Positions 10,071-25,357 of a stretch of DNA of 64,000 bases are shown in pieces; the first letter of the stretch is position 1, and each line of letters opens with the position of its first letter. Made by a program: the position numbers and the translations under genes. The notes below the pieces were generated by a model that was not told the origin of the DNA, ran no database searches, and saw nothing but the letters and a program-made list of their open reading frames with translations. The stretch comes from an uncultured archaeon (GTDB taxonomy: Archaea; Altiarchaeota; Altiarchaeia; IMC4; SCGC-AAA252-I15), in the NCBI GenBank assembly GCA_902384455.1, contig CABMCB010000092.1, positions 316 to 64,315 on the forward strand. The letters run 5' to 3'.

Positions 10071-10196
10071 GAAGGTTACAGTAGGTATCCGCTTGCGAAG
10101 ACGAACCAAGTCCAAACTATAAGAAATGCTATTAATGCCAGGAAGAGCAGCACATCTTTCCTTGTCACATCCTCGCGGATCTGTAATTGCATCGTA

Positions 10197-10204
10197 TTTA
10201 TATA
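10197..10204 (+). promoter_or_regulatory. TATA-box-like element (tttatata) upstream of the first pilin gene
   Basis: An AT-rich octamer about 63 nt upstream of ATG 10267. A 6-bp-stem hairpin lies at 10233-10249 and an aggtg SD-like motif at 10256-10260. Confidence 0.3.
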
Positions 10205-10266
10205 CCGGAGATTAAGTTATAAACACGTATAATTCGTCCCTGAGACGAACTTTACAGGTGCTATAA

Positions 10267-10617
10267 ATGGAAGGAAAAAAGAGCTTAACGCTCATGGTAA
10301 CAGTTGCCTTGTTTGTTTTTTTGGCCCAGTCTGTTTTGGCCATCACCGGCACTGAAGCCCAGTCTAGTGCGACAAACGCAATCTGCAACATACTTAATAC
10401 GCTGAGGAACCTGCTTTTCCTGATAGCAGGTGGTGTGGCCGCTTTGGTCATAACCATGCAGGGCATTAAGTGGGCCGGCAGCGCCGATGACCCGGGTGCC
10501 CGCAAGCAAGCCAAGTCTGGAATTGTTAACGCAATCATCGGGCTGGTTATCGTTTTGCTTGCAGTCTGGGTAGTCCTTATGGTGTTCTCCAAGGGCTGCA
10601 ATCTGACTAACCCGTAG
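10267..10617 (+). CDS. VirB2/TrbC-like pilin, T4SS-type pilin subunit 1
   Basis: 116 aa with a Sec-type signal peptide (cleavage near SVLA|ITG). The mature part has two hydrophobic helices separated by a short polar loop (..GIKWAGSADDPGARKQAKSGIVNAIIGLV..), the VirB2/TrbC topology. It is paralogous to 24089 and 24452. Confidence 0.55.
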   Translation: MEGKKSLTLMVTVALFVFLAQSVLAITGTEAQSSATNAICNILNTLRNLLFLIAGGVAALVITMQGIKWAGSADDPGARKQAKSGIVNAIIGLVIVLLAVWVVLMVFSKGCNLTNP

Positions 10618-10628
10618 GTTATCTGATG

Positions 10629-10673
10629 GCGCACGGGACACCGTGCGTCACCCCTATTTTTATTTCTTCTTTT
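10629..10673 (+). terminator. Hairpin plus oligo-T tract after the pilin gene
   Basis: A gcgcacgg-gaca-ccgtgcg stem-loop is followed by the T-rich run ctatttttatttcttctttt. Confidence 0.4.
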
Positions 10674-10715
10674 GCCGTTTTTTAGGTTCTATCGCCAGTA
10701 AATTATTGGTTTACC

Positions 10716-13700
10716 GTGGGCTCTCTACCTTTATTCCGCAGGCGCTTTGCGCGGAAGTTGGTGGCCGTCGTCTTTCTAGTTCTTTTGCTGTCTCAAAACA
10801 CTTTGGCTTTCTGTGTTTCATGGAGTTGCATCAAAACAGGCTATTCTAACACGGTAGAGTACATCAACTGCGTAAGGACTGACTCGGCGCAGGAGGGTGC
10901 GGTTTTGGCCGTGATTTCGTGTACGGCGAATAAGGCGTGGCAGCTTTTGCTGAGTTTTATTACTGGTGTGGCGAAGGCTATGGTTGAGGGTCTTATGGCG
11001 GCTTTTGAGTATATGTTGACGATTAATCCTTGCTTTTATAATGGGGGCATAGGTGGGATTGGGTGTACTGATCTTTTTGGCCAGCAGGTTCAGCCGAGGC
11101 CTATGGTGTTGGTGCTTGTGGGTACGTTGATTATGGTTTTGTATCCGATTTACGTTGTTTTGCTTTTGCTTGCGGGTTTTTCTTTTATTATTTCGGCTGA
11201 TGATCCTCAGCAGAGGAATATGGCGAAGGAGCGTTTTTATAAGTTGGTTATTTCGATGATTCTTGTTTCTTTGTCTCCGGTCATTTTCCAGTTGTTCCTT
11301 AATTTGGAGGTGGCTTTGGTTGAGGCTGTTTTCGGGATGATTTCTGCGGAGGTTAATAATATGACTGCTTTGTCGGGGGTGACGATTTTTGCGACTATTG
11401 CCATGATTATTGGCGCTTCGTTTGTTCAGACGTCTATTGGCGCCACTTTTGCCCTCATTGTGATTGCGGTTATTGTTGTTATGGGGATCAGGTATCTTAT
11501 GACTACGGTTTTGGGTTGTATGTTTCCCGTTACGTTGTTCTGTTATTTCTGGGAGCCTACTAGGAATTTCGGCAGGGGTTTTGTGACGAAGACTATGATG
11601 TGGATTTTTATTCCTGTTGTTCAGTCGGTTTTTCTGGCGTTGACTATCATCAGTCTTATGAGCATTGGCGGCGGAGGCGCGGCTTCAATAAACAAGATTA
11701 AGAGCAATGCTGTATCTGGGTCTATTACTGAGATCCTGATTCCTATGACGATGATAGGCGCTGGTCTTATCGGCATGATTGTGTCTCCTTTTGTGATGTC
11801 TGGGATGCTGCAGTACATCGGCGGCGCAGTCGCTGCTACTGGGATGGGCATGAGCACTAAGGAGGGAGCTACGAAGGTTCAGAGGGTGAAGGGTTTTGGA
11901 TTGATGGTGGGCGGTGCGAGTCTGATGGGGCAGGGAGTGGGCCCCAGCGCCCAGTACGCAGCCTCGACCGCAGCTTATCTTCAGTCGAGTTTTGGTCAAA
12001 GCGACGAGAGCGCTAACCTTCTCCCGTCTTCATGGAGCGGTTTTAAGCAGGAGGTAAGGGACGTTGGCACGAGCATAGGCAGGGGCGCTAGTAGGGTGAG
12101 GAGAGGCGGCAATTTCTTTAGCGCTACTCCGCCTCGCGCGGGAGGCGCTGCTTGGGGGACTCCGTGGCAGGGACGTTTTAGGGCGCCTTTCCGGCAAGCT
12201 ACCGCCCCTGTTGTAGGTATGTTAGATTCGTTGTCTCAGGATAGCGTTAACCAGCAGGAGGCCCTTAGGATGGTGGGCAAGAACAGGGGGGGCACTGCTG
12301 AGGAGGGTGAAGGTTTTGAGGGCACTAGTCTTGCCGAGAGGAATACTCCGCCTAAGTCTCCTATGTGGAAGTTTTGGGCGCCGGGAACTCCTGAAGGCGG
12401 GTACAGCGACATGTATAATACAGTCGACCAGGAGAACCGCATGAAGGGCGAAGGCAACCTGCCTCTGTTCATGTTTCCGTGGGAGTGGAGTAAGCGCGGC
12501 CAAAGTTTAGGTACGGCGTCCACTCGGCTCGCTGAGGCATTAGCCGGCAGGGAGGCGGTTGTGGAGGGGAAAGGCGGAAAGGCTCTAAGCGGCGGAGAAC
12601 GATGGATGCGCGCAGGAGCAAGCCTGGGCCATCTTGCTTTGGCGTTTAAGCCTGTTAGCCCGCTTTACCCCATCCGCCACATGGGCAGGATTCTTTACGA
12701 CATTGCCGTTGAGCTTGCTCCGCCTACCGGCCCCCTCTGGCTTATGGTGCCGCCGCGGCCAATACAGCCGTGGAAGGACTCTGATAGTAGATGGAAACGG
12801 GGCTTAGGTAAATTTATTTACGGTGCGACTACTGTCGCCCACTATGGCGCCAGGCCTTTTATGCCGCTTGCGTTGCTTCCCACTCAGGAGCGGCTTCATA
12901 GTGCCGGTTTATTCTTGAGCGGACTGGGTTTCCGCCAAGTGTATAATGGTATTGAATGGAAGCGCCAATGTAAGGGCCACGAAGCGGAATGGAAGAGAGC
13001 CCACTCGGACTATGAGGCCGCAAAAGCTTCTGGGGATTCTGCTGGGATGGCTGCAGCCCAAACGAGGAAGGATGATGCTGCGGCGAAGTACGCTTCTTTG
13101 ATGGTTAAGGTCGGCGGCCAAGGCGGGAGTAAAGGCACCCGTTTCATGGGCGAGGACGTTAAGAATCCTGCTTTCCATCGTCAGGAGGAGGAGCGCATAT
13201 CTGAGAGTAATCCTGCTTTCTACGAGCATTACCTTAGGACGGCGAGGTTAAGCAGCAAACCTATGAAGGAGGTTGATGAGGCGATTGCGGCCGGAGGCAA
13301 GTCCGCTAAGAATGCTTTTGTTACTCGGGCTATTGATGAGTTGCTTGAGGAGAGGGGTTTTTCAACGAAGGGTTTGTCATCTGGTGCTGCTGCTAGGGCT
13401 CGCGCTGCTGCTGTTGCTGAGTTCACTGTGGAGGATAAGAGGAGGATTGCTGAGGAAGCGTATTTGATGGCTTCCGCCAGCACCGCAACTGAGGGGAAGT
13501 TTGTTCCCACCAAGCAGGAGCGGCAGGAATACCGGGAGACTCAGGCCAGAAACGGATTGAATCTTTTTGAGTGGGACTCAGGCAACACTGAAATGCAGGT
13601 GCTTGCTTACGGCGTACTGGAGGGTAAGTGGCGGCAGATTGCTTTGGCCAACGAGACTCTTCTGGTGAACAACAGCGAGAACCCCATGCAGTCCATTTAC

Positions 13701-16202
13701 CATGAGGCGTACTACAGGGAGCTTGTGGCGGCAATTAAGGCTACAGGAACGGACGCCCGCCTGAAGCTTGGCGCCCTCCCGGAATCTCCGTCAGAGGCTA
13801 TGTACGAGGCGGTTGGAGGTTGGCGCAAGGAACTTAGCGAGGGAGACCAGCAGAAGGCCCGGGCAGCCCACGACAAGGCGATGGCTGCTGTTGAGGGGAT
13901 AGCGAGGGGTGTTCTTTCCGAGTCTGAGATTAAAGCCTGCGAGCAGAGGGCTGCAGAGCAGGCTAAGGTCACAAACATTCCTCTTAGGCGAGGCAGCCAA
14001 GGCCGCATCTACGCTAGGTTGGATTATGTTGCGTATGTTCAGCAGTTGGGCAAGTACAACGGCGAAGCTAATGAGATGGATGAGTTGGGCGTTGGGATGC
14101 GCGCCGGGTACAGGATGAGGAAGTTGACTGACGATGAGCTTAGGGGAGAAACCGCCATTCCAATGATTTCGAGAGGCAGGAGTGCTCACATAATATACAG
14201 GGATGACGGTGCCTACGTGATAGAGATGTATCATAACGCCGATGCCGTAGATCCTGGCTTAGGCCAGTGGATGCATCCCGGAGGAGCGATTGGTCCTGCC
14301 GGTAATTTCACGCGGGTGGGCAACGAGCCGTTGGAGGAGGCGGAGGTAGTAAACAAGACGGCCGAGCGTAGGGCTAAAGTCTTTGATCATTATGAGGGGG
14401 TTGAGAAGGATTTGGTGGGTTTTGATGTTTCGGCTGACGGTCAGCTTGTGGCTTTGACAAGCGACGGTAAACGCGTGGAATTGAGCGGCGACAGCTATTT
14501 GGTGGACCAGTCGCTTTTTGCTCAGGCGACAAACGGGGGTTTGTCTTCTCAGGAGGCGGATATAGCGCTTAGGGATTACATGCACCGTCTGAAGCAGCAG
14601 GGCGTGCCTGACGATGACGCCATGATGAGGAGCATGCAAAATACTAGGTTGAGGCGGGCTCTTATGACGGACGGAGTGTCTGACGATGTCGCAAGGGACT
14701 TTGCGAGAGTCCCCATGACAAGAGCCCCTCCGGGAGGAGTCCAACGTGAGGAGGAATTGTTTAATTTCGCGGCGATACACGCAGGCGACTACAACCCGCA
14801 AACCCGCCAGAACACCAGGTTGACTGCTGAACAATACATGACGGGAGAAAATGCCAAAAAAGTGTTCACTTCAATGAGGGAGGCAGGCAAGAGGCGGGTC
14901 CAGGAAAAAGACTTGGCCACCGCAGACGCCGAAAGACAGGCTCAAGAACGGCACAGGCAAGCCGCAGGCAGAGTGCAGATTGACGGCGAAGAACTGCTGC
15001 GCCACCCCCCCGTGATATACGACCCCAACAACAGCGAACACGTCAGACTGTACGGGCGGCCTTACGATCCTGTTAAAAATCCTGACGGCAAGAGAGCCGG
15101 CGAACGTCTTGAGCCTTTGAGGTATGATCCGACTAATCCTCATCATAGGGCTTTAGGTTGCGTAGTGTACGACCACGCTAATCCTGAGCATATCCGGTTG
15201 TACGGCAGGGGTTACAGCGACGGGGACGTGGTTTTGCAGCGGTATAAGCCCGGCGAACTGGTGGAAATGCATACTCAGGAGGAGATTGACGAACTTAAGG
15301 TAGCCGTTGATGAGGTCGCGCGTAATGCGGAAGCTGCGACTTCAAGAAGAGTCAGCGTTCCAGACCCCAGTAATCCTGCGGCAACGGTGGACGTGCTTAT
15401 GGGCGGAGAGCACCTTGACGGCGTAAGAATTGTGGCTGAAGGAGGGTGGCCTCCTGTTAACGCTGAAACCCGCGATTCGGGCACTACTTTGGTCATCGAC
15501 ATTGACGCCCAGAGGATTGTGTTGGATCCGACTACAGGGGACCCTGTGCGTGACTCCAACGGAAATTTTGTGCGGGAAAAATACACTTTAGCCGAGCTTA
15601 CGGATATGGTCAGAAACTTTTCTGCAGGCCACGAGTACACTCATTCGGCTTTGCTCAAGCAGGCCGGAGCCACTGAGAGCGTTACAGGCGACGCGGAAGG
15701 CACACGGCGGCTGGCGGACCATGTGATGGCGGACCGGAAGGCTGCTACTGAAAGAGGTTCGGACGGGGTTGTAAGAGACGTGGATTACTTTTCCGGCCTT
15801 GATGCTGTTAGAGGCGATGCGAGGGCTAGGAGGCTGTACAATGCTACTGGGGGGCAGTTTGGTCTTCTTGTGGCTGAGTCTGCTGCTAACTCGTGGCAGC
15901 CAAGCGCCGGCGACCCTAACGTAAGCATATTCGGCGAGACGCGGGCAGATTTCAACCAGCATGTAAGCCAGGCTGCTGCTCAGGTTGCTGCGGCAAACGA
16001 GAACAGACGGTTGAATCGCCGTGACGTAATGGTGCTTGCCAACTTGGCGGAGGCGGCTGAGAGGGCAGGAGACGCAGCGGTTGCCGCAAGAATAGACGGC
16101 ATGATCGCAGCCCCGACAAACGCGGCGTTATTGTCGGACTACAGGGAGGCCAGGCACGTGTCCGGGCTGGTTCACGACAACGTACGGTTTAAGACGCCGT
16201 AA
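10716..16202 (+). CDS. Giant VirB6/TrbL-like polytopic membrane protein with a roughly 1400 aa C-terminal extension
   Basis: 1828 aa. The N-terminal ~430 aa hold at least 7 TM helices. The block FWEPTRNFGRGFVTKTMMWIFIPVVQSVF matches LFEPTRSWGEKYLRKAVKWIFIPVFQAFW in 17078..19825. The remainder is soluble with coiled-coil-like Ala/Glu/Lys stretches and internal repeats (NxEHxRLYGRxY twice). I recognised no enzymatic domain. Confidence 0.5.
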   Translation: MGSLPLFRRRFARKLVAVVFLVLLLSQNTLAFCVSWSCIKTGYSNTVEYINCVRTDSAQEGAVLAVISCTANKAWQLLLSFITGVAKAMVEGLMAAFEYMLTINPCFYNGGIGGIGCTDLFGQQVQPRPMVLVLVGTLIMVLYPIYVVLLLLAGFSFIISADDPQQRNMAKERFYKLVISMILVSLSPVIFQLFLNLEVALVEAVFGMISAEVNNMTALSGVTIFATIAMIIGASFVQTSIGATFALIVIAVIVVMGIRYLMTTVLGCMFPVTLFCYFWEPTRNFGRGFVTKTMMWIFIPVVQSVFLALTIISLMSIGGGGAASINKIKSNAVSGSITEILIPMTMIGAGLIGMIVSPFVMSGMLQYIGGAVAATGMGMSTKEGATKVQRVKGFGLMVGGASLMGQGVGPSAQYAASTAAYLQSSFGQSDESANLLPSSWSGFKQEVRDVGTSIGRGASRVRRGGNFFSATPPRAGGAAWGTPWQGRFRAPFRQATAPVVGMLDSLSQDSVNQQEALRMVGKNRGGTAEEGEGFEGTSLAERNTPPKSPMWKFWAPGTPEGGYSDMYNTVDQENRMKGEGNLPLFMFPWEWSKRGQSLGTASTRLAEALAGREAVVEGKGGKALSGGERWMRAGASLGHLALAFKPVSPLYPIRHMGRILYDIAVELAPPTGPLWLMVPPRPIQPWKDSDSRWKRGLGKFIYGATTVAHYGARPFMPLALLPTQERLHSAGLFLSGLGFRQVYNGIEWKRQCKGHEAEWKRAHSDYEAAKASGDSAGMAAAQTRKDDAAAKYASLMVKVGGQGGSKGTRFMGEDVKNPAFHRQEEERISESNPAFYEHYLRTARLSSKPMKEVDEAIAAGGKSAKNAFVTRAIDELLEERGFSTKGLSSGAAARARAAAVAEFTVEDKRRIAEEAYLMASASTATEGKFVPTKQERQEYRETQARNGLNLFEWDSGNTEMQVLAYGVLEGKWRQIALANETLLVNNSENPMQSIYHEAYYRELVAAIKATGTDARLKLGALPESPSEAMYEAVGGWRKELSEGDQQKARAAHDKAMAAVEGIARGVLSESEIKACEQRAAEQAKVTNIPLRRGSQGRIYARLDYVAYVQQLGKYNGEANEMDELGVGMRAGYRMRKLTDDELRGETAIPMISRGRSAHIIYRDDGAYVIEMYHNADAVDPGLGQWMHPGGAIGPAGNFTRVGNEPLEEAEVVNKTAERRAKVFDHYEGVEKDLVGFDVSADGQLVALTSDGKRVELSGDSYLVDQSLFAQATNGGLSSQEADIALRDYMHRLKQQGVPDDDAMMRSMQNTRLRRALMTDGVSDDVARDFARVPMTRAPPGGVQREEELFNFAAIHAGDYNPQTRQNTRLTAEQYMTGENAKKVFTSMREAGKRRVQEKDLATADAERQAQERHRQAAGRVQIDGEELLRHPPVIYDPNNSEHVRLYGRPYDPVKNPDGKRAGERLEPLRYDPTNPHHRALGCVVYDHANPEHIRLYGRGYSDGDVVLQRYKPGELVEMHTQEEIDELKVAVDEVARNAEAATSRRVSVPDPSNPAATVDVLMGGEHLDGVRIVAEGGWPPVNAETRDSGTTLVIDIDAQRIVLDPTTGDPVRDSNGNFVREKYTLAELTDMVRNFSAGHEYTHSALLKQAGATESVTGDAEGTRRLADHVMADRKAATERGSDGVVRDVDYFSGLDAVRGDARARRLYNATGGQFGLLVAESAANSWQPSAGDPNVSIFGETRADFNQHVSQAAAQVAAANENRRLNRRDVMVLANLAEAAERAGDAAVAARIDGMIAAPTNAALLSDYREARHVSGLVHDNVRFKTP

Positions 16203-16216
16203 TTAACAACAGTCAA

Positions 16217-16600
16217 ATGAACATGATAAAACTTAAGGACGCGGAAGGAGGCAAGCAGTCTCCTGAAAATGAGATAAATCTGAAGGAGATTAACCCTGTA
16301 AGCGAGCGGCCTTCGGGGTTGAGTTTCGGCAGGTTGATTTCAGGGGCTGCTTTGGGGTTGAGTCTCGCCTGTTTGACTCCTGGTTGCGCTCAGGCGGCTT
16401 CTGCGCCGAGTCCTGGTGTTGCCGAGAAAATATTTGATGTGGCGGTTTATGCGGCAAGCACTATTGTTGCGTGGGAATTTTTCGCCACAATCTCAAAGGC
16501 TGTATCGACGCATTATAAACCAAGCGACTTGTTTCGTGCAGGGTGGTTGAGGTTGAGATACGGAAGAAAACAGAATAAGGAGGGAGAGGATGGCGACTAA
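16217..16600 (+). CDS. Hypothetical small protein with a central hydrophobic segment (locus accessory)
   Basis: 127 aa ORF co-directional with the cluster and overlapping the next ORF by 11 nt. A hydrophobic stretch (LISGAALGLSLACL) may be a TM or lipoprotein-like segment. Confidence 0.4.
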   Translation: MNMIKLKDAEGGKQSPENEINLKEINPVSERPSGLSFGRLISGAALGLSLACLTPGCAQAASAPSPGVAEKIFDVAVYAASTIVAWEFFATISKAVSTHYKPSDLFRAGWLRLRYGRKQNKEGEDGD

Positions 16601-17081
16601 GGGCACGGCAGGTGAAGGCAGTTCCCCTAAAGGGTCTAAGGGGAAAACTAGGGTTAGCGAGGCAGACGCGTTAAAAATCCTGAAGGAATTGGCTTGGCGT
16701 AAACTGGAGCTCTACAAATCCGACTCACTGGATGCGATACGAGGGATTGTATTGCAAAGAAGCAAAATCCGCGGAGCAAACCTCGACCCCGGAAAAATAA
16801 GCTGGGAGGAACTTTTCAAGACTAACGTATGCCCCAACTGCCGCGGAAGACTAACTTTACTGGGCGAACGCTACCTATGCGACACATGCCTGATCGAGAT
16901 TCCCGCCAACGTATACGAGGCCGCTGAAAAGCAGTATTACGGTGAGACTAAGCTTTTGGACGATGAACAGCAGGCCACACAGAATCTTTTAGATGCTGGG
17001 TACAGCATGAACGAACTGGTAGAGCTCTACGCGAAAGCGGAAAAGGAGGCGTTAACCGAACCTAGATGGGATAAGAGATGA
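16590..17081 (+). CDS. Hypothetical zinc-ribbon protein
   Basis: 163 aa with a CPNCRG...CDTC (CxxC-x14-CxxC) motif. It overlaps the next gene by 4 nt, so the two are probably translationally coupled. Confidence 0.45.
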   Translation: MATKGTAGEGSSPKGSKGKTRVSEADALKILKELAWRKLELYKSDSLDAIRGIVLQRSKIRGANLDPGKISWEELFKTNVCPNCRGRLTLLGERYLCDTCLIEIPANVYEAAEKQYYGETKLLDDEQQATQNLLDAGYSMNELVELYAKAEKEALTEPRWDKR

Positions 17082-19825: not shown

Positions 19826-19849
19826 AATAAACCCCCAGCTAACTAATAA

Positions 19850-20794
19850 TTGAATAACCACATGACAAGCGAAGAAAAAGAAGGCCGACGAAGGATACTG
19901 CAGGACTTGGAGAGGGACGTAATCCAAAGCCCCCGCGAACAAGAGGAACTCCGAAGAGAAATACGAACCCAAGACGCCGACGACATCGCAATCAAAGACC
20001 GCATACTACGCCAAGCAGAACGCATAAGAACCACGGCACCACCACCCGGCACACACGTAAGACAAACAACCTCAGCAGCCGGAGGCTCAGGAGGAAGCGG
20101 AGACGACATAGTGCAAATACCACTCAGAGACGAACGCCTACGCGACATGAGCGTCGGAGAAATACAAAACAGAATACCACCCGGCGCAACAGTAACAATG
20201 AGCAACGACGGAATAACCGTCGGCCTACACAGAAGCGACATAACAGAAATACTCATCGACCACATTTTCATCGCGGCCGCAGGCCCCACTAAAAAAGGGA
20301 AGTCTATGCTTAAGCCAGCTGGCGCCCCATGGGCATCGGAGGCCGTGAGCATGGAGCTCGCAAGCAAAGGCGTGCGTCCGGTATGGCACCGCATAACTAA
20401 ATACGAGCTTATGGATGACTACTCCAGGTACTATCTCCTGTGGGAGTGGGACCATCAGCTGCTTCGTATCCAAAACGGACTAGCCGCAGGATACCAACCC
20501 AGCGCACCCCGCACATGGTGGAAGAAAAAAATCAAAAGCGACGTAGACGCCATGATAGACGACCTCAACAGAGACCTGTCTTATGAAGGCCAATACATGA
20601 AGAGAGTCAAAGGCAGGATGGAGCAACACGCAAAAGACCATGCTGCGGCCAAAGCAGCCTTAGACCATTGGGAAGAGGACCTTAGGGGATACGACAGGTT
20701 CACGACTGAAGAGGAAAAAAGGATAGCGGACTACACAAAAGGCGCGATGGAGCAGGCAATGGCCGCCGAGAAGATAGAGGAAATATCCGACTAA
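19850..20794 (+). CDS. Hypothetical soluble protein (locus accessory)
   Basis: The 314 aa ORF is predicted from a TTG start. A more likely start is the ATG at 19862 (MTSEEKEGRR...). The N-terminus is charged. I recognised no domain. Confidence 0.4.
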   Translation: MNNHMTSEEKEGRRRILQDLERDVIQSPREQEELRREIRTQDADDIAIKDRILRQAERIRTTAPPPGTHVRQTTSAAGGSGGSGDDIVQIPLRDERLRDMSVGEIQNRIPPGATVTMSNDGITVGLHRSDITEILIDHIFIAAAGPTKKGKSMLKPAGAPWASEAVSMELASKGVRPVWHRITKYELMDDYSRYYLLWEWDHQLLRIQNGLAAGYQPSAPRTWWKKKIKSDVDAMIDDLNRDLSYEGQYMKRVKGRMEQHAKDHAAAKAALDHWEEDLRGYDRFTTEEEKRIADYTKGAMEQAMAAEKIEEISD

Positions 20795-20832
20795 ACAGAA
20801 CTTAAACATACAAACTAACACTTAACCACATT

Positions 20833-21759
20833 ATGCCGTACGCAATACCTAAAAACATCCGGTACGAGGAGAAGCTCCTAGGCCCCCTCACCGTCAAGCA
20901 GACTGCTTACGTCGGAGTAGGCGCGTCAATAGCCGGCTACATTTACATGATGAGCGGCCTGCAGGACGAAATCAAGACCGCCGCGGTACTGGTCGTGGGG
21001 TTGCTGACGATAGGGTTTGCCATGTTCAACCTCGACACCCTACTTCGGACGTACGTGGGCTTCATGCGGGCGACTAAAAAGAGCAGTTGGATATCGCCTG
21101 CAGCACGAGAACTCCTTAACATCCAAAGCATCCGCGCAGACGCAGTCTACCTGAAAGACAAGAGGATACTTGGGCTGCTCAAGGTTAGGCCCATAAACTT
21201 CGGCGTCCTTTCCGCGCACGACCAAGACACCGTCATCTACGGCTTCCTTGAGTTCCTCAACAGCCTCAACTTCAGCATACAGATTACAATGCGAAGCGTC
21301 AACCTCGACCTTGAGGATTATCTTCGGCACCTTAAACGCCGCATAGTGCACAGAGATGACAAGGTGGCTCTGGCGTACTACGAACACTTCGCAGAGTACA
21401 TGCGCACATACATCAAAGTGAACAGAATCAACGACCGGCACTTCTACGTGGTCGTGCCGGCCGCAAAAGGAAAAGACGAAAAAACAACCGTATTAGACCT
21501 GGAAAAAAGATGCGAACTAATATCGGCTACTTTAGGCTTGAGCGGGATAGTTAGCGAACGGATGGACACCCATGCGTTAATCAATTTTTACAGCAGCTAC
21601 TTCACGGAAACATTCGAGATATTCGAGTCATACATAAGCCCCATCACACTGTACAGGAAGATGTGGAAGCAGGCGCCAAAACACGTGTTAAACCAAGCAG
21701 GACCCGGAGTTTCTCCGACTGCGCCGGCACAACAACCGCAGGCGAAGCCGCCGGAATAA
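20833..21759 (+). CDS. VirB3-like two-TM segment fused to a VirB4 N-terminal domain
   Basis: 308 aa. Two N-terminal TM helices (VGVGASIAGYIYMM; AAVLVVGLLTIGFAMF) are followed by a region resembling the N-terminal domain of VirB4/TrbE/TraC (..LLKVRPINFGVLSAHDQDTVIYGFLEFLNSLNFSIQITMRSVNLD..). It ends 4 nt before the next gene, in a different frame. Confidence 0.45.
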   Translation: MPYAIPKNIRYEEKLLGPLTVKQTAYVGVGASIAGYIYMMSGLQDEIKTAAVLVVGLLTIGFAMFNLDTLLRTYVGFMRATKKSSWISPAARELLNIQSIRADAVYLKDKRILGLLKVRPINFGVLSAHDQDTVIYGFLEFLNSLNFSIQITMRSVNLDLEDYLRHLKRRIVHRDDKVALAYYEHFAEYMRTYIKVNRINDRHFYVVVPAAKGKDEKTTVLDLEKRCELISATLGLSGIVSERMDTHALINFYSSYFTETFEIFESYISPITLYRKMWKQAPKHVLNQAGPGVSPTAPAQQPQAKPPE

Positions 21760-21763
21760 TACC

Positions 21764-24058
21764 ATGGGACTAGCTGACTTACTACCTTTCGGAGGCAAAA
21801 AGAAGGAGACGACGGGAGCCGGCAACGAGACATACTCAGAATACGAAGACCGCCTCATAGAATACCTGACAAGCCCCTCCACGATCATCCAGCACAAGGA
21901 AGACATACAAATCAGCAAATACCACCGCGTAGTCGCAGCAATAGACTTCCCCCGCATCGTAGACCCAGGCTGGCTAACCCGGCTCATAGAAATGAACCTG
22001 GACTTCGACCTGTCGATGCACATAAACCCCTACAACGTAGACTCCACAATCAAACTGCTGGAGAACGAGATAAAGAAGCAGAAAACAGACCTCTACGCGC
22101 TCGAATCAGAAGGAAAAATAGTGCCCCAAGCCCTCATACAACAGCACCAAGACACACTCGCACTACTACAACTCGTACAGGAAGGCACTGAAAAAATGTT
22201 CGACGTCTCCCTCTACATAGACGCCAAAGCATACGCCTCAGAAGAACTGGACTCAAACGCCAAACAAATAATGACGACGATGAACAGCATCATGGTAACC
22301 CCAAAAATACCAAGCTACCAGATGTACAAAGGCCTCAAAAGCATCCTCCCCATCGCCGACGACCAATTGAGGGTGACGCGCAACATCACAAGCTCAGCAC
22401 TCGCCGCCTGCTTCCCGTTTGCCATAACAAGCCTGGAAACTCACGCCACAGGCATACTACTGGGGTTCAACGAATACAACAGCATCCCCATCATAATAGA
22501 CCCCTTCAACTACACCAACCCCAACGTGCTCGTCCTTGGAACCAGCGGAGGCGGAAAAAGCTACACCCTAAAACTCATGATAATGCGGGAATTCATGGAA
22601 GGAGTATCAGTCAACATGATAGACCCGCAAGCCGAATACACCGACCTCGTCAAGACTTTCAATGGGAAGACCATCAGAATCGCCCCCGACAGCGACAGCA
22701 TAATCAACCCCTTCGACCTCATGGGACAGACACTCGACGAAAAGAAACTATCATTGCTCGCATTCTTCCGCGTCCTCTTGGGCGAACTGACCGAACCAGA
22801 ACGCGCCATACTCGACGACGCCATAGACAGAACATACGAAGAAAAAGGCATAACAAACGACCCAAAAACATGGAGCAAAAGACCGCCGCTACTCGAAGAC
22901 CTATACAACGAAGTCCTACCCCTAACACGAAGCAGCAAAGACATAGTCTACAAACCGGCAATGGCCATAGTCAACCAAATGAAAAGCTACGTGTTCGGCC
23001 CCATGAAGTTCTTGAACCAGCAGACTAAGATTGACCTAAGCAACCGGATGATCAATTTCGACATCCGGGACGCACCCGACATAGGCAAAGGAGTCATAAT
23101 GTTCCTGATTCTCGAGTACGTCTACACCCAGATGAAGAAGAGCAAGACCAGAAAGATGCTCGTCATCGACGAAGCCTGGACGGTGCTCTCGGCAGGAGAC
23201 CAGGCCGAGTACATACTGCGGCTCGTCAAGACGTGCAGGAAATTCAACCTAAGCTTGTGCATGATAACCCAAGACGTAGAGGACGTGCTGGTCAGCCGCG
23301 CAGGCCGCGCCGTGCTCACCAACACCGCAACCAAACTGCTTCTGAAGCAGGACACCAGCGTCATAGACCAGATTGCGGACAAATTCCACCTAAACGAAAA
23401 CGAAGTCCGTTTCCTAAAGACCGCCCGCGCAGGACACGCTCTGCTCATCGCAGAAAACACGCGCGTCCCCATCTTCATCCAAGCAAGCCCCGAGGAACAC
23501 CGCGTAATCACCACCAAACCAGACGAACTCATACAGCTGGAGCAGGTAATGCGGCCTATGGGCGACGACATCGTGCCTGAATTCGACATCAACAAGAAGA
23601 TACACCAGAAGGCGGAACTCACGGACGACCAGATTAAGATACTGCAGGACAGAGACTTCGACGAAACCCGCATCACCACGCTAACGGGAGACAACGAACT
23701 GTTCATCATAAAGAACGAGACTGAAGAATCCGACGAACACTTCGTGCTCCAACACCTGATACTGGAAGAAACCAAAAAACACACCGATAAAGGACTGTCC
23801 CACCACACCCAGCTGCCGGACGTAACGTTCGAAGCAGGAGGAGGACGCCTCGTCGCAGTCGAAGTCGAGACGGAGGGAGGACTCAAGAGGGCGCTTGAAA
23901 ACATGGACACCAAACTCCCAGTCATGAAGAAGTACGACGACTACTTCTACGTAGTCACAAGCCCCACCATCAAAAGAGACTACGCAGACAGATTCGGCGG
24001 ACCCGAAAAAGTCATTATGCGGGACGAAGCAGCAGCCAAAATCGCCTCATACTTCTGA
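21764..24058 (+). CDS. VirB4/TrbE/CagE-family T4SS ATPase with a C-terminal Hjc/PD-(D/E)xK-like nuclease domain
   Basis: 764 aa with Walker A VLGTSGGGKS (about residues 257-266) and Walker B KMLVIDEAW. The C-terminal ~160 aa (EHFVLQHLILEE...PDVTFEAGGGRLVAVEVETEGGLKR...KRDYADRFGGPEKVIM) resemble archaeal Holliday-junction resolvase Hjc (E...VDLVA...IEVK...[20 protein letters not shown]). Confidence 0.6.
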   Translation: MGLADLLPFGGKKKETTGAGNETYSEYEDRLIEYLTSPSTIIQHKEDIQISKYHRVVAAIDFPRIVDPGWLTRLIEMNLDFDLSMHINPYNVDSTIKLLENEIKKQKTDLYALESEGKIVPQALIQQHQDTLALLQLVQEGTEKMFDVSLYIDAKAYASEELDSNAKQIMTTMNSIMVTPKIPSYQMYKGLKSILPIADDQLRVTRNITSSALAACFPFAITSLETHATGILLGFNEYNSIPIIIDPFNYTNPNVLVLGTSGGGKSYTLKLMIMREFMEGVSVNMIDPQAEYTDLVKTFNGKTIRIAPDSDSIINPFDLMGQTLDEKKLSLLAFFRVLLGELTEPERAILDDAIDRTYEEKGITNDPKTWSKRPPLLEDLYNEVLPLTRSSKDIVYKPAMAIVNQMKSYVFGPMKFLNQQTKIDLSNRMINFDIRDAPDIGKGVIMFLILEYVYTQMKKSKTRKMLVIDEAWTVLSAGDQAEYILRLVKTCRKFNLSLCMITQDVEDVLVSRAGRAVLTNTATKLLLKQDTSVIDQIADKFHLNENEVRFLKTARAGHALLIAENTRVPIFIQASPEEHRVITTKPDELIQLEQVMRPMGDDIVPEFDINKKIHQKAELTDDQIKILQDRDFDETRITTLTGDNELFIIKNETEESDEHFVLQHLILEETKKHTDKGLSHHTQLPDVTFEAGGGRLVAVEVETEGGLKRALENMDTKLPVMKKYDDYFYVVTSPTIKRDYADRFGGPEKVIMRDEAAAKIASYF

Positions 24059-24088
24059 TTTTTAGTTACTGCCGGAGAGTATGTAACA

Positions 24089-24424
24089 ATGGGCCGGACA
24101 ACGTTCATTTTATGCGGCGTAATGCTCGCTTTTGCGGTCGCGGACTGCTCGGCGCAGTTCACAAGCATACCCTCCAGCTGCGTCGTCGGCGGAGGCAACC
24201 TTGGTTACACTATCGCGCTAGGCAACTTCGACCTTTTAAACACTGAAATAATGAGCGTCGCCAGCGCCGCAGCAGTCGTGATGATTGGTATGCAGGCGCT
24301 AAAGTGGACCACGGAAACAGACCCGGCAGGCCGCGAGAGCGCGCGCAAGGGAATTATTTACGTAGTGTTGGGTTTGGCGTTGATGATGAGCGCCGGCGGC
24401 ATTGTGGGTTTCCTTCTCTGCTGA
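24089..24424 (+). CDS. VirB2/TrbC-like pilin paralog 2
   Basis: 111 aa with a signal peptide, two hydrophobic helices and a conserved loop IGMQALKWTTETDPAGRESARKGIIYVVLGLAL. This compares with pilin 1, MQGIKWAGSADDPGARKQAKSGIVNAIIGLV. Confidence 0.5.
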   Translation: MGRTTFILCGVMLAFAVADCSAQFTSIPSSCVVGGGNLGYTIALGNFDLLNTEIMSVASAAAVVMIGMQALKWTTETDPAGRESARKGIIYVVLGLALMMSAGGIVGFLLC

Positions 24425-24451
24425 TTTTTATCCGCTATTGCCCAGTAGGTT

Positions 24452-24796
24452 ATGATGAAGGCGACGGTGTTGTTTGCTGCGACGTTCATTGTGTTTTGTT
24501 TTGCGAGTTTTGCGGCTGGAGCTCCTTGTTCTGTATCTGGTGCAGGTCCGATTACTGCGGCAGGCAGCACTTTTTACGACATGATTTGCGACCTTGTTGA
24601 GATTGCTTCCGCATTGGGGACTCTTATGATTGCGATTCAGGGCCTAAGGTGGGCTGTCGCGGACGGCGCTTCCGAGCGCAATGAGGCGAAGAAGGGTATT
24701 ATGTACGTTGTGATTGGTTTGGCTTTGGTTGTGAATGCGCCAACTATCGTTGACACAATTTACTGGAACAACATTCCGCCGGCGTATAAACCATAA
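24452..24796 (+). CDS. VirB2/TrbC-like pilin paralog 3
   Basis: 114 aa with the same architecture and the loop IAIQGLRWAVADGASERNEAKKGIMYVVIGLAL. Confidence 0.5.
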   Translation: MMKATVLFAATFIVFCFASFAAGAPCSVSGAGPITAAGSTFYDMICDLVEIASALGTLMIAIQGLRWAVADGASERNEAKKGIMYVVIGLALVVNAPTIVDTIYWNNIPPAYKP

Positions 24797-24838
24797 AACT
24801 GCGGCCGTATATCAATAAAAGACTTTCTTCGGCGCGGC

Positions 24839-25312: not shown

Positions 25313-25357
25313 GTTAAAGTATTGAGAAAAGGCTTAAATAACGGGGATTGTTCAGCC

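What the first reader, a model, noticed from the sequence alone, without database searches (positions are those of the whole stretch)
10267..24796. Three VirB2/TrbC-like pilin paralogs bracketing the locus
One pilin gene sits at the 5' end with its own TATA-like element, 5'-UTR hairpin and downstream hairpin plus T-tract terminator. That arrangement is consistent with high, separately attenuated expression of a major subunit. Two more pilin paralogs sit in tandem at the 3' end. All three share a signal peptide, helix, conserved loop (GxKWxxxxDxxxxxxAKxGI) and second helix.
Basis: partly seen in the sequence, partly recalled or inferred. Interest (0 to 1): 0.55.

Follow-up and report, generated by a model that had tools for sequence, protein, structure and literature searches.

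The report
Archaeal secretion locus with three pilins
An uncultured Altiarchaeota archaeon carries in its core chromosome a stripped-down relative of the bacterial conjugation machine with three related pilin genes: one highly conserved gene in front with its own terminator-like hairpin, and two fast-evolving ones at the end. Its relatives share this layout, and I found no description of it in the papers I could search.

Summary
ORFs 10267-10617, 24089-24424 and 24452-24796 are paralogs (30-33% identity, BLASTP E 6e-9 to 1e-14). All three pass Pfam's cut-off for T4SS_pilin, and two also pass TrbC/VirB2. Each has a Sec-type signal peptide, a helix, a short charged loop and a second helix. None has a type IV pilin (class III) signal.

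They bracket a 14.5-kb cluster of VirB2, two VirB6-like proteins, VirB3/PrgI and VirB4. The cluster lies among housekeeping genes. I found no integrase, relaxase, coupling protein, tRNA or flanking repeats.

The layout is conserved in the nearest Altiarchaeota as three positional ortholog classes. The front pilin is 53-65% identical to its orthologs, with a nearly invariant core. The two rear classes are 31-52% identical. VirB4 is 70-75% identical.

A GC-rich hairpin plus T-tract follows the front pilin in 7 of 8 related genomes. The stem sequences are unrelated, so structure is conserved, not sequence. The 5'-UTR hairpin is no better than chance, and the quoted loop motif fits only in relaxed form.

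Best reading: a major pilin plus two accessory pilins of a domesticated, MPF-FATA-like type IV secretion apparatus. It is the archaeal counterpart of the Patescibacteria chromosomal T4SS and is analogous to Ced/Ted. Its substrate is unknown. This is a new variant of a known kind.

The parts
10197..10204 (+). TATA-box-like element TTTATATA, 63 nt before the pil1 start codon
   Evidence: Only 4 TTTAWAWA matches occur on the + strand of the 64-kb window. Relatives also have a TTTAWAWA-like element upstream of their pil1 ortholog.
10233..10249 (+). 5'-UTR hairpin TTCGTC-CCTGA-GACGAA. It is present but not significant and not conserved.
   Evidence: -7.8 kcal/mol, z -1.4, 19 of 200 shuffles as good. 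No equivalent in L002, L003, L085 or L087.
10256..10260 (+). Shine-Dalgarno-like AGGTG. Relatives have GAGGTGA at the same place.
10267..10617 (+). pil1, a VirB2-type pilin of 116 aa and the proposed major subunit. Signal peptide aa 1-25, helix 31-71, loop 72-75, helix 76-110. Cys40 and Cys111 are conserved.
   Evidence: Pfam PF18895 52.5 bits and PF04956 28.2 bits, both above cut-off. AF2 pLDDT 85.7. 33 homologs with a nearly invariant core QGIKWAGSAEDPGARKQAKQGIIHAV. Public record VVB54758.1 is named 'Uncharacterised protein'.
10627..10650 (+). GC-rich 10-bp hairpin, 10 nt after the pil1 stop codon
   Evidence: -18.9 kcal/mol, z -4.1. Structurally equivalent hairpins with unrelated sequence occur in L001, L002, L003, L084, L085 and L087.
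10655..10686 (+). T-rich tract (T5, T3, T4, T6), the proposed archaeal oligo-T termination or attenuation signal
   Evidence: T-runs of 4-8 follow the hairpin in the same six relatives.
10716..16202 (+). Giant membrane protein of 1828 aa. It has a signal peptide, a VirB2-like module (aa 136-194, nt 11121-11297), a VirB6-like polytopic domain (to about aa 420), and a 1400-aa hydrophilic region with no known domain.
   Evidence: PF18895 28.9 bits, above cut-off. hhalign against the pilin profile gives E 1e-5. Paralog of the 915-aa protein. No Pfam hit in the C-terminal part.
16217..16600 (+). Small 127-aa ORF with two hydrophobic segments. No counterpart in relatives.
16590..17081 (+). Conserved 163-aa protein with CxxC...CxxC (zinc-ribbon-like); function unknown
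   Evidence: weak zinc-ribbon hits. Orthologs at the same position in relatives, 26-30% identity.
17078..19825 (+). Second VirB6-like protein of 915 aa. It has a VirB2-like module (nt 17321-17500), a polytopic domain and a low-complexity hydrophilic tail.
   Evidence: 28% identity over 262 aa to the giant protein, E 4e-29. TrbL/VirB6 PF04610 21.5-22.4 bits, below the 25.9 cut-off. 5 of 21 family members hit TrbL and 6 of 21 hit T4SS_pilin.
19850..20794 (+). Conserved 314-aa hydrophilic protein of unknown function
20833..21759 (+). VirB3/PrgI-like membrane hairpin plus the VirB4 N-terminal (TraC-like/TrsD) domain. This is the split-off front part of VirB4.
   Evidence: PF12666 PrgI 30.6 bits, above the cut-off of 27. 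NCBIfam Mbov_0397 VirB4 positions 33-277 and TrsD. It is fused to VirB4 in 1071-1110-aa homologs.
21764..24058 (+). VirB4-family ATPase of 764 aa, with an extra C-terminal domain of restriction-endonuclease-like fold (about nt 23732-24019)
   Evidence: P-loop_TraG, AAA_10 and DUF87. NCBIfam CD1110-type VirB4 307 bits. PDB 4ag5, E 8e-35. C-terminal domain: AF2 pLDDT 88 and Foldseek hits to NucS, Hjc, Can2 and VRR-NUC.
24089..24424 (+). pil2, a VirB2-type pilin of 111 aa. It belongs to class 'a', first after VirB4, ending in ..LLC.
   Evidence: PF18895 34.3 bits. Positional orthologs in L004-L013, L016 and L041. Public record VVB54766.1 is named 'Uncharacterised protein'.
24452..24796 (+). pil3, a VirB2-type pilin of 114 aa. 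It belongs to class 'b', second after VirB4.
   Evidence: PF18895 43.7 bits and PF04956 30.9 bits. Positional orthologs at 31-52% identity.

Best explanation
The three genes encode VirB2-type (conjugative-pilus-type) pilins of a minimal type IV secretion apparatus. That apparatus is a vertically inherited part of the Altiarchaeota chromosome, not of a mobile element.

**Machine.** It consists of:
- a split VirB3/VirB4 ATPase;
- two paralogous VirB6-like channel proteins, each beginning with its own VirB2-like module;
- three small conserved proteins of unknown role;
- the three pilins.

**Proposed working.**
1. All three pilins are inserted by Sec and cleaved by signal peptidase I (inferred from sequence).
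2. pil1 is the major, filament-forming or conduit-forming subunit (inferred).
3. pil1 is transcribed from its own TATA promoter (inferred).
4. The conserved hairpin plus oligo-T tract after its stop codon ends or stabilises most transcripts. Pilin mRNA therefore exceeds mRNA for the machinery (inferred).
5. The rest of the cluster, through pil2 and pil3, is made either by read-through or from a weak internal promoter (inferred).
6. pil2 and pil3 are low-abundance accessory pilins at the operon end. They evolve fast and would prime, cap or decorate the pil1 polymer (inferred).
7. VirB4 powers extraction of pilin from the membrane and transport through the VirB6-like channel (inferred from established knowledge of T4SS).

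**Substrate.** The most likely substrate is DNA exchanged between cells, as in Ced/Ted. There is no relaxase or coupling protein, and VirB4 carries a nuclease-fold domain. This step is the least secure.
For: **Identity as VirB2-type pilins.**
- Pfam hits above cut-off.
- Signal peptide, helix, loop, helix topology.
- Pairwise paralogy.
- Best PDB sequence match is the R388 pilin TrwL, aligned over its full length but not significant (E 1.3).
- Weak hit to the Mycoplasma ICE pilin-like family Mbov_0395.

**Machine.**
- VirB4.
- PrgI/VirB3 plus TraC-like domain.
- VirB6-like paralogs with an N-terminal pilin module. The same feature was reported for CedA and for VirB6 (PMC9905601).

**Chromosomal and vertical.**
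- The whole window is housekeeping: PheT, HMG-CoA reductase, aconitase-family, GOGAT, PurL and others.
- No tRNA and no flanking direct repeats. GC content matches the surroundings.
- The same gene order, and the same upstream PMT_2 neighbours, occur in many Altiarchaeota MAGs.
- Relatives are also flanked by housekeeping genes, with no relaxase, T4CP or integrase among the precomputed Pfam hits.

**Major versus accessory.**
- pil1 orthologs are 53-65% identical (BLAST) with a nearly invariant core. Rear classes are 31-52% identical.
- The pil1 class is present in all Altiarchaeota clades examined. The rear tandem is clade-specific and varies between 2 and 3 copies.

**Terminator.**
- Strong hairpins (-13.7 to -22.8 kcal/mol, z -3.9 to -7.9), 10-25 nt after the stop, then T-runs, in 7 of 8 genomes of the clade. 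Stem sequences are unrelated.
- Genes from the giant ORF to pil3 are separated by 38 nt or less, or overlap.
Against: - There are no expression, proteomic or imaging data, so abundance, cleavage and filament formation are all inferred.
- Foldseek did not retrieve solved conjugative pilins. The best match had E 0.67 and the hits were generic helical hairpins.
- One clade member (L086) lacks the hairpin. In the other Altiarchaeota clade, with pil1 directly before VirB3, the element is irregular.
- In L003, L086 and L087 a TATA-like element lies between the T-tract and the giant gene. The element may therefore be a full terminator with a separate downstream promoter, not an attenuator.
- To my knowledge, archaeal termination needs only oligo-T. 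The hairpin may instead stabilise the mRNA 3' end.
- Nothing shows that the substrate is DNA. The related Patescibacteria system is essential for epibiotic growth and has no established substrate (PMC12102498, PMC12857230).
Confidence: 0.6

Rival explanations
1. The paralogs are alternative major pilins. They would be interchangeable or differentially expressed variants that change the surface or partner specificity of the pilus, not one major pilin plus minor ones. This has been proposed for VirB2 arrays in Patescibacteria, Bartonella and Anaplasma.
For: - VirB2 arrays of 2-11 divergent genes (mean 25% identity) are common next to virB4 in Patescibacteria, where they are interpreted this way (PMC12102498).
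- The rear pilins evolve fast and vary in copy number, 2-3 per genome.
Against: - The three classes are ancient positional orthologs with class-specific signatures, not recent lineage-specific duplicates.
- pil1 has a nearly invariant core and its own promoter and terminator. pil2 and pil3 lie at the operon end with 27-30-nt spacers.
Confidence: 0.18
2. Some or all of the small proteins are not filament subunits. They would be membrane-embedded parts of the translocation channel or a short envelope-spanning conduit, comparable to CedA2, VirB3 or the pilin-like proteins of wall-less Mycoplasma ICEs. No extended pilus would be made.
For: - The VirB4, VirB3 and pilin hits point to the monoderm MPF-FATA type, where pili are generally absent.
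- pil1 weakly matches the Mycoplasma ICE Mbov_0395 'pilin-like' family.
- VirB2-like modules are also built into both VirB6-like proteins.
Against: - A separately terminated, strongly conserved pilin gene suggests a stoichiometric excess typical of a polymer.
- TedC and CedA1, from equally minimal archaeal systems, do form pili (PMC9905601).
Confidence: 0.15
3. The locus is the mating-pair-formation module of an integrated conjugative element or plasmid, and the pilins serve transfer of that element.
For: The closest curated protein families are from ICEs and conjugative transposons: CD1110-type and Mbov_0397 VirB4, PrgI and TrsD.
Against: - No integrase, relaxase, coupling protein, tRNA or flanking repeats anywhere in 64 kb.
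- GC content is not deviant.
- Conserved synteny with PMT_2, PheT and CBS neighbours across genomes whose VirB4 identity falls from 75 to 59%.
- Relatives are likewise embedded in housekeeping genes.
Confidence: 0.05
4. The apparatus does not move DNA. It would mediate cell-cell contact and uptake or delivery of proteins or metabolites, as suspected for the essential T4SS of epibiotic Patescibacteria. The pilins would form an attachment or transfer tube between cells of a biofilm or between symbiont and host.
For: - The same component set, chromosomal location and lack of relaxase as the Patescibacteria system.
- Homologous loci are widespread in host-dependent DPANN lineages: Woese-, Pace- and Nanoarchaeota.
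- No coupling protein to recruit DNA.
Against: - VirB4 carries a conserved domain with a nuclease (PD-(D/E)xK-like) fold.
- The only experimentally characterised relaxase-less archaeal systems (Ced) import DNA (PMC9905601).
- Neither point is decisive.
Confidence: 0.3
5. The three proteins are type IV pilins or archaellin-like subunits (class III signal peptide) assembled by a PilB/TadC-type machine.
For: None beyond small size and an N-terminal hydrophobic segment.
Against: - No conserved [KR]-[GA] class III cleavage motif. The N-terminal hydrophobic segment ends in A-x-A-like sites and is followed by two further hydrophobic helices.
- The model is an all-helical hairpin.
- Pfam assigns the proteins to T4SS_pilin/TrbC.
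- The neighbours are VirB4/VirB6, not PilB/TadC.
Confidence: 0.01

Closest known systems
Chromosomal T4SS of Patescibacteria/CPR bacteria with VirB2-like pilin arrays (Quinonero-Coronel et al. 2025, PMC12102498; Wang et al. 2023, PMC10633639)
   Same: - Chromosomal and widespread in a lineage of small-genome organisms.
- Component set VirB4 + PrgI/VirB3 + VirB6 + several divergent VirB2-like pilins detected with the same Pfam models (PF18895, PF04956).
- MPF-FATA affinity of VirB4.
- No relaxase.
   Different: - The host is archaeal (Altiarchaeota; related loci in other DPANN).
- The pilins are not one tandem array. They are split into a front gene with its own terminator-like element and a rear tandem.
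- VirB3 plus the VirB4 N-terminal domain is a separate gene.
- VirB4 has a C-terminal nuclease-fold domain.
- There are two VirB6-like proteins with 550-1400-aa hydrophilic tails.
- No VirB1, VirB8 or VirD4 was detected here.
- Whether the VirB4s are sister clades was not tested.
Ced (Sulfolobales) and Ted (Thermoproteales) DNA-import systems (Beltran et al. 2023, PMC9905601)
   Same: - Domesticated, chromosomal archaeal T4SS derivative made of VirB2-like pilin + VirB6-like channel + VirB4-like ATPase, without relaxase.
- The VirB6-like protein starts with a pilin-like module.
- TedC, like pil1-3, has a cleavable Sec signal peptide.
- Ced has a second small two-TM protein (CedA2).
   Different: - No detectable sequence relationship. 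The CedB model scores 57 bits against 307 for the CD1110-type VirB4. No CedA/CedA1/CedA2 hit was found, and the PDB profile search does not recover CedA1 or TedC.
- Different phylum.
- Three clear pilin paralogs instead of one.
- A VirB3/PrgI component is present.
MPF-FATA conjugation systems of monoderm bacteria and Mycoplasma ICEs (PrgI/PrgJ/PrgH of pCF10; CD1110 family; Mbov_0395/Mbov_0397)
   Same: These are the best-scoring curated families for VirB4, for VirB3/TrsD and, weakly, for pil1. They form a minimal inner-membrane machine.
   Different: - Those systems sit on mobile elements with a relaxase and a coupling protein.
- Most lack VirB2 pilins.
- All NCBIfam scores here are below the family cut-offs.
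VirB2/TrbC/TraA/TrwL conjugative pilins of diderm bacteria
   Same: Same Pfam superfamily: signal peptide, two hydrophobic helices and a short basic loop. TrwL is the best, though not significant, PDB sequence match.
   Different: - No VirB5, VirB7, VirB9, VirB10 or VirB11 partners.
- A conserved Cys pair near the two ends of the mature pil1, instead of cyclisation or acetylation.
- Archaeal diether or tetraether lipids would have to be the lipid partner.
Multiple VirB2 paralogs in Bartonella, Anaplasma and Rickettsia T4SS
   Same: Several divergent VirB2 copies in one system.
   Different: In those pathogens the copies are interpreted as antigenic or host-range variants. Here the three classes are ancient, positionally fixed orthologs with very different evolutionary rates.

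Membership tests
VirB2/TrbC/T4SS_pilin superfamily | Significant match to the family profile (PF18895 and/or PF04956) above the curated cut-off | tested here: met
   PF18895 scores 52.5, 34.3 and 43.7 bits against a cut-off of 26.6. PF04956 scores 28.2 (pil1) and 30.9 (pil3) bits against 27.9. pil2 does not reach TrbC.
VirB2/TrbC/T4SS_pilin superfamily | Small protein with a Sec-type signal peptide and two hydrophobic helices joined by a short polar, basic loop | tested here: met
   Hydropathy and charge map. AF2 helices at 4-24, 31-71 and 76-110 with pLDDT 85.7. A-x-A-like sites are conserved in 33 homologs. SignalP itself was not available.
VirB2/TrbC/T4SS_pilin superfamily | Encoded together with VirB4 and VirB6 homologs | tested here: met
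   (VirB4). (VirB6-like; TrbL hit below cut-off).
VirB2/TrbC/T4SS_pilin superfamily | Structural similarity to solved conjugative pilins | tested here: inconclusive
   Foldseek against the PDB returned only generic helical hairpins, best E 0.67. The sequence profile against the PDB put TrwL first, at E 1.3.
VirB2/TrbC/T4SS_pilin superfamily | Polymerises with stoichiometric lipid into a hollow helical pilus | not testable with these tools
   Needs cryo-EM of native filaments.
Type IV pilin / archaellin (class III signal peptide) | Short charged leader ending in [KR]-[GA], cleaved by a prepilin peptidase directly before the hydrophobic helix; globular beta-rich head | tested here: not met
   No conserved class III motif in 34 aligned sequences. 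All-helical model. No PilB/TadC/PibD neighbours.
Ced system (CedA, CedA1, CedA2, CedB) | Sequence membership of the ATPase in CedB and of the small proteins in CedA1/CedA2 | tested here: not met
   NCBIfam CedB scores 57 bits against a cut-off of 700. No Ced model hit any pilin or VirB6-like protein. The PDB profile search did not recover CedA1 or TedC.
Ced system (CedA, CedA1, CedA2, CedB) | Imports chromosomal DNA between cells | not testable with these tools
   Needs genetics or a marker-exchange assay.
MPF-FATA type T4SS | VirB4 of the CD1110/PrgJ/Mbov_0397 type and PrgI-type VirB3 | tested here: inconclusive
   CD1110 model scores 307 bits against a cut-off of 325. Mbov_0397 scores 246 against 590. 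PrgI PF12666 scores 30.6 against 27, so that part is met. The best solved relative is Thermoanaerobacter VirB4, 4ag5, E 8e-35. No phylogeny was made.
Conjugative element (ICE/plasmid) T4SS | Relaxase and type IV coupling protein encoded with the system | tested here: not met
   No such Pfam or NCBIfam hit among the 40 ORFs scanned, which cover the whole cluster and the larger ORFs across the rest of the window. None in the precomputed Pfam hits around relatives. Unrecognisably divergent versions cannot be excluded.
Conjugative element (ICE/plasmid) T4SS | Integrase, att direct repeats or tRNA target; atypical composition; patchy distribution | tested here: not met
   Conserved synteny across Altiarchaeota.
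Patescibacteria-type chromosomal T4SS | Chromosomal VirB4 + PrgI/VirB3 + VirB6 + multiple VirB2-like genes, without relaxase | tested here: met
   compared with the description in PMC12102498.
Patescibacteria-type chromosomal T4SS | VirB4 belongs to the monophyletic Patescibacteria clade | not tested
   Needs a VirB4 phylogeny with Patescibacteria, MPF-FATA, Ced and Ted sequences.

The most novel reading that the evidence does not exclude
Altiarchaeota and other DPANN archaea share an undescribed, vertically inherited, T4SS-derived apparatus. It would be a third archaeal lineage beside Ced and Ted, and the archaeal twin of the Patescibacteria system.

In this reading:
- a pilus or conduit is built from one conserved major pilin and two fast-evolving accessory VirB2 pilins;
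- giant VirB2-VirB6 fusion proteins replace the missing outer core complex in an archaeon with two membranes;
- a nuclease-fold domain fused to VirB4 takes over DNA processing in place of a relaxase;
- together these give relaxase-independent DNA exchange or scavenging between cells.
Probability: 0.3. Interest if true: 0.8.

Novelty: new variant of a known kind. Interest (0 to 1): 0.58.

Why it matters
VirB2-type pili and T4SS-derived machines in archaea are so far documented for crenarchaeal plasmids and for the Ced and Ted import systems. In ultrasmall bacteria, a chromosomal relaxase-less T4SS with pilin arrays was recently found to be essential.

This locus shows that a homologous machine is a conserved chromosomal trait of Altiarchaeota, with related loci in Woese-, Pace- and Nanoarchaeota. 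The scan found 264 loci among 185,579 species genomes. The genes are still labelled 'uncharacterised protein' in the public record.

The locus offers several concrete handles:
- a defined candidate major pilin;
- a conserved terminator-like element that can be checked in existing metatranscriptomes;
- a testable link between the biology of DPANN archaea and that of CPR bacteria.

It also bears on how a T4SS can work without a relaxase or coupling protein, and without VirB7/9/10, in an archaeon that may have two membranes, as Ca. Altiarchaeum hamiconexum does.

Tried and rejected
1. **Foldseek of the pil1 model against the PDB.** It returned only generic helical hairpins. A two-helix hairpin carries too little 3D signal, so this counts neither for nor against.
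2. **Profile of 34 pilins against PDB sequences.** TrwL came first but at E 1.3. CedA1, TedC, VirB2 and TraA were not recovered.
3. **Profile of 21 VirB6-like domains against PDB sequences.** No hit. VirB6 identity rests on sub-threshold TrbL hits.
4. **Pfam at E up to 10.** Queries were the 1400-aa and 555-aa hydrophilic tails, the 314-aa and 127-aa proteins and the VirB4 C-terminal domain. There were no hits except a chance-level YqhG match (E 0.23) for the 314-aa protein.
5. **Rfam at gathering thresholds over 9500-25500.** No known RNA family.
6. **Direct-repeat search over 5000-30000 for att-like boundaries.** None bracket the locus.
7. **tRNA scan.** None.
8. **5'-UTR hairpin as a regulatory element.** Rejected as not better than shuffles and not conserved.
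9. **The literal motif GxKWxxxxDxxxxxxAKxGI.** It matches none of the three.
10. **Bacterial sigma-70 promoter scan.** At or below shuffle expectation and irrelevant for an archaeon. The overall terminator-like count is also not enriched; only the 10627 site stands out.
11. **Nine literature searches.** None turned up a paper in the held library describing a T4SS, VirB4 or VirB2 in Altiarchaeota or DPANN. This is absence from that library, not proof of absence from the literature.
12. **ICE and type IV pilin readings.** Considered and rejected for the reasons given under the rival explanations.

Full report
**1. What is in the sequence**

The region 10267-24796 is one co-oriented gene cluster on the + strand:

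| Gene | Coordinates | Length |
|---|---|---|
| pil1 | 10267-10617 | 116 aa |
| giant ORF | 10716-16202 | 1828 aa |
| small ORF | 16217-16600 | 127 aa |
| small ORF | 16590-17081 | 163 aa |
| second large membrane protein | 17078-19825 | 915 aa |
| hydrophilic protein | 19850-20794 | 314 aa |
| VirB3-like | 20833-21759 | 308 aa |
| VirB4 ATPase | 21764-24058 | 764 aa |
| pil2 | 24089-24424 | 111 aa |
| pil3 | 24452-24796 | 114 aa |

From the giant ORF onward the genes overlap or are at most 38 nt apart. pil1 is separated from the giant ORF by 98 nt. The next gene downstream, a CBS-domain protein, converges from the other strand.

**2. The three small proteins are paralogs and are VirB2-type pilins**

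- Pairwise BLASTP gives 30-33% identity with E 6e-9 to 1e-14.
- All three exceed Pfam's curated cut-off for PF18895 T4SS_pilin (52.5, 34.3 and 43.7 bits against 26.6). pil1 and pil3 also exceed it for PF04956 TrbC/VirB2 (28.2 and 30.9 against 27.9).
- Hydropathy shows a charged N-terminus, a hydrophobic signal-like segment ending in small residues, then two hydrophobic helices separated by a charged loop.
- The AlphaFold2 model of pil1, built on 34 sequences, has pLDDT 85.7 and helices at 4-24, 31-71 and 76-110.
- The quoted loop motif does not match literally. The relaxed form [GA]x[KR]W-x(10-13)-A[KR]xGI matches all three.
- Structure search was uninformative. The PDB sequence profile put the R388 pilin TrwL first, but without significance.
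- NCBIfam gave only a sub-threshold hit to the Mycoplasma ICE 'pilin-like' family Mbov_0395, and nothing for CedA1 or CedA2.

**3. The rest of the machine**

- *VirB4.* The 764-aa protein is a VirB4-family ATPase: P-loop_TraG E 7e-29, AAA_10 and DUF87. Its best curated family is the CD1110-type VirB4 at 307 bits, then Mycoplasma Mbov_0397 at 246 bits, with CedB at only 57 bits. The best solved relative is Thermoanaerobacter VirB4, 4ag5, at E 8e-35.
- *VirB3.* The 308-aa protein combines a PrgI/VirB3 membrane hairpin (above cut-off) with the N-terminal domain of VirB4 (Mbov_0397 positions 33-277, TrsD). In some homologs it is fused to VirB4, giving proteins of 1071-1110 aa.
- *VirB6-like pair.* The 1828-aa and 915-aa proteins are paralogs in their N-terminal membrane domains (28% over 262 aa, E 4e-29).
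  - Each begins with a VirB2-like helix-loop-helix module. For the giant protein this is supported by PF18895 above cut-off and hhalign E 1e-5.
  - A polytopic region follows that gives sub-threshold TrbL/VirB6 hits.
  - A pilin-like N-terminus in the VirB6 homolog is what Beltran et al. reported for CedA and VirB6 (PMC9905601).
- The locus therefore holds five VirB2-like modules: three free and two fused.

**4. It is chromosomal and inherited vertically**

- The 30 larger ORFs I scanned outside the cluster, spread across the rest of the window, are housekeeping or give no hit: PheT, glycosyltransferases, HMG-CoA reductase, aconitase-family proteins, isopropylmalate/isocitrate dehydrogenase, PurL, glutamate synthase, adenylosuccinate synthetase and others.
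- There is no integrase, relaxase, coupling protein, tRNA or bracketing direct repeat. GC content is unremarkable.
- The window's VirB4 is 100% identical to VVB54765.1 of an 'uncultured archaeon' 85-kb contig. pil1 and pil2 are deposited there as 'Uncharacterised protein'.
- A scan of one genome per species found 264 related loci. Those at 59-75% VirB4 identity are labelled Altiarchaeota, Altiarchaeales or Altiarchaeia. Those at 38-42% are labelled Woese-, Pace- and Nanoarchaeota.
- In the nearest Altiarchaeota the gene order is the same: PMT_2, pil1, giant, ~160 aa, VirB6-like, ~340 aa, VirB3, VirB4, then 2-3 pilins. The flanks are again housekeeping genes.

**5. Three ancient pilin classes with different rates**

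- Aligning the pilins of 13 genomes resolves three positional classes:
  - the front class, pil1;
  - class 'a', first after VirB4, ending in ..LLC (pil2);
  - class 'b', with core ..VKWI-ADSPNERAEAKKGM.. (pil3).
- pil1 orthologs are 53-65% identical by BLAST. Their core, QGIKWAGSAEDPGARKQAKQGIIHAV, is nearly invariant, and two cysteines are conserved.
- Classes 'a' and 'b' are 31-52% identical in the same genomes, where VirB4 is 70-75% and VirB3 61-67% identical.
- Other Altiarchaeota clades keep a pil1-type gene, there placed directly before VirB3-VirB4, but not the rear tandem. The DPANN loci have one pilin 1-4 kb upstream of a VirB6-like gene and a fused VirB3/4.
- The bracketing arrangement is therefore real, conserved and clade-specific. 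pil1 is the universal member.

**6. Regulatory elements**

- *TATA.* TTTATATA lies at 10197-10204. It is one of four TTTAWAWA matches on that strand in 64 kb.
- *Ribosome-binding site.* AGGTG lies at 10256-10260. Relatives have GAGGTGA at the same place.
- *5'-UTR hairpin.* It is weak (z -1.4) and not conserved. I discount it.
- *3' element.* The hairpin after the stop codon is strong: 10 bp, -18.9 kcal/mol, z -4.1. T5...T6 tracts follow it.
  - In the same clade, L001, L002, L003, L084, L085 and L087 each have a perfect 7-13-bp GC-rich hairpin 14-25 nt after the stop codon. Energies are -13.7 to -22.8 kcal/mol and z -3.9 to -7.9. T-runs of 4-8 follow.
  - Their stem sequences are unrelated to each other. 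Only L086 lacks the element.
  - Structure conserved while sequence is not is the best evidence available here that the element is functional.
  - To my own knowledge, archaeal RNA polymerase terminates at oligo-T without needing a hairpin. The hairpin may therefore protect the 3' end of the pilin mRNA rather than cause termination.
  - The same logic, an abundant short transcript for the filament subunit plus read-through for the machinery, is known to me from archaellin operons and bacterial pilus operons.
- *Possible internal promoter.* In L003, L086 and L087 a TATA-like element lies between the T-tract and the giant gene. A separate promoter for the machinery cannot be excluded.

**7. Mechanism proposed**

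- *Shown:* family membership of the pilins, VirB4 and VirB3; paralogy; chromosomal context; conservation of order, classes and the 3' element.
- *Inferred:* Sec export and signal-peptidase cleavage; pil1 as the abundant polymerising subunit; pil2 and pil3 as low-abundance accessory subunits made from the operon's end; VirB4-driven assembly through the VirB6-like proteins.
- *Least secure:* the substrate.
  - Pointing to Ced-like DNA exchange: there is no relaxase or coupling protein, and VirB4 has a conserved C-terminal domain. Its model (pLDDT 88, alpha-beta-beta-beta-alpha-beta) retrieves almost only PD-(D/E)xK nucleases: NucS/EndoMS, Hjc, Can2, VRR-NUC, YaeQ and restriction enzymes. E-values are 3.5e-3 to 0.05 and probability reaches 0.99.
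  - Leaving open a non-DNA role in cell-cell interaction: the close analogy to the Patescibacteria system, whose substrate is unknown and which is essential for epibiotic growth.
- Ca. Altiarchaeum hamiconexum has two membranes and a ~32-nm periplasm (PMC4460559). If this organism does too, the long hydrophilic tails of the VirB6-like proteins could stand in for the missing VirB7/9/10 core. This is speculation.

**8. Comparison with known systems and novelty**

- The locus works like Ced/Ted and like the Patescibacteria T4SS.
- By sequence it is not Ced.
- It is MPF-FATA-like but below all curated family cut-offs.
- It lacks the defining mobile-element functions of conjugative systems.
- Multiple VirB2 paralogs are known in Patescibacteria arrays and in Bartonella and Anaplasma. 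A fixed split into a separately terminated conserved front gene and a fast-evolving rear tandem is not described there.
- None of nine searches of the held literature turned up a paper on T4SS, VirB4 or VirB2 in Altiarchaeota or DPANN. A 2025 T4SS review lists only conjugative plasmids under archaeal systems. The held library is incomplete, so I rate this 'new variant of a known kind', not categorically new.

**9. Verdict**

- The wider significance is the lineage-wide archaeal T4SS-like machine that the pilins belong to.
- Interest 0.58.

Noticed in passing
window 23732-24019 (VirB4 aa ~657-752): VirB4 carries an extra C-terminal domain with no Pfam match. The AF2 model (pLDDT 88) has an alpha-beta-beta-beta-alpha-beta core. 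Its Foldseek hits are almost all PD-(D/E)xK nucleases: NucS/EndoMS, Hjc, Can2, VRR-NUC and YaeQ, with E 3.5e-3 to 0.05. Conserved acidic residues are E669, D686 and E700. About 90 representative relatives exist, and most are stand-alone proteins of 170-360 aa. It could be a DNA-processing module in a relaxase-less T4SS.
   Followed up: partly
window 10716-11975 and 17078-18157; modules at 11121-11297 and 17321-17500: The 1828-aa and 915-aa proteins are paralogs. Each starts with a VirB2-like helix-loop-helix module fused to a VirB6-like polytopic domain, followed by a hydrophilic tail of 1400 or 555 aa without any known domain. Their orthologs are only 22-35% identical where VirB4 is 70-75% identical.
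   Followed up: partly
L002 ~9920-9945, L003 ~735-760, L085, L086 and L087 ~1410-1440 (upstream of pil1 orthologs); window 10193-10206: A conserved palindrome, GTATAC-N2-3-(G)TATAC, lies 20-30 nt upstream of the TATA box of pil1 in five relatives. It follows a small 91-99-aa ORF that the window lacks. The window and L084 instead have GTATTTATATA(TA)C overlapping the TATA box. This may be an operator for a regulator.
   Followed up: no
window 6883-8439 and 8490-10070; L002, L021, L033, L037-L039, L085, L087: PMT_2 (GT-C, protein-mannosyltransferase-like) genes sit directly upstream of the pil1-type pilin in several Altiarchaeota clades. [quoted passage not shown]
   Followed up: no
pil1 aa 40 and 111 (window 10384-10386 and 10597-10599): Two cysteines are at least 90% conserved in 34 pil1-type sequences, one near each end of the mature helical hairpin. 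Class 'a' pilins also have an N-proximal Cys and a terminal ..LLC. A disulfide stapling the open end of the hairpin is conceivable. I did not measure the distance in the model.
   Followed up: no
L022 6987-12919 (- strand); L036 1170-6462: Some Altiarchaeota carry tandem arrays of five VirB6-like paralogs near VirB4.
   Followed up: no
L020 and L046 (single-cell genome SCGC AAA252-I15); P0149: One Altiarchaeota-like single-cell genome has two VirB4 loci, at 67% and 41% identity to the window's VirB4. A 41%-identical 'uncultured archaeon' VirB4 on a 117-kb contig (P0149) may be a second system in the window's organism.
   Followed up: no
L015, L018, L019, L020, L023, L042 (directly after VirB4): In a second Altiarchaeota clade the first gene after VirB4 encodes a 490-760-aa protein with an internal pilin-like domain, in place of a small class 'a' pilin.
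   Followed up: no
window 16217-16600: A 127-aa ORF with two hydrophobic segments lies between the giant gene and the 163-aa gene. It has no counterpart in any related locus.
   Followed up: no
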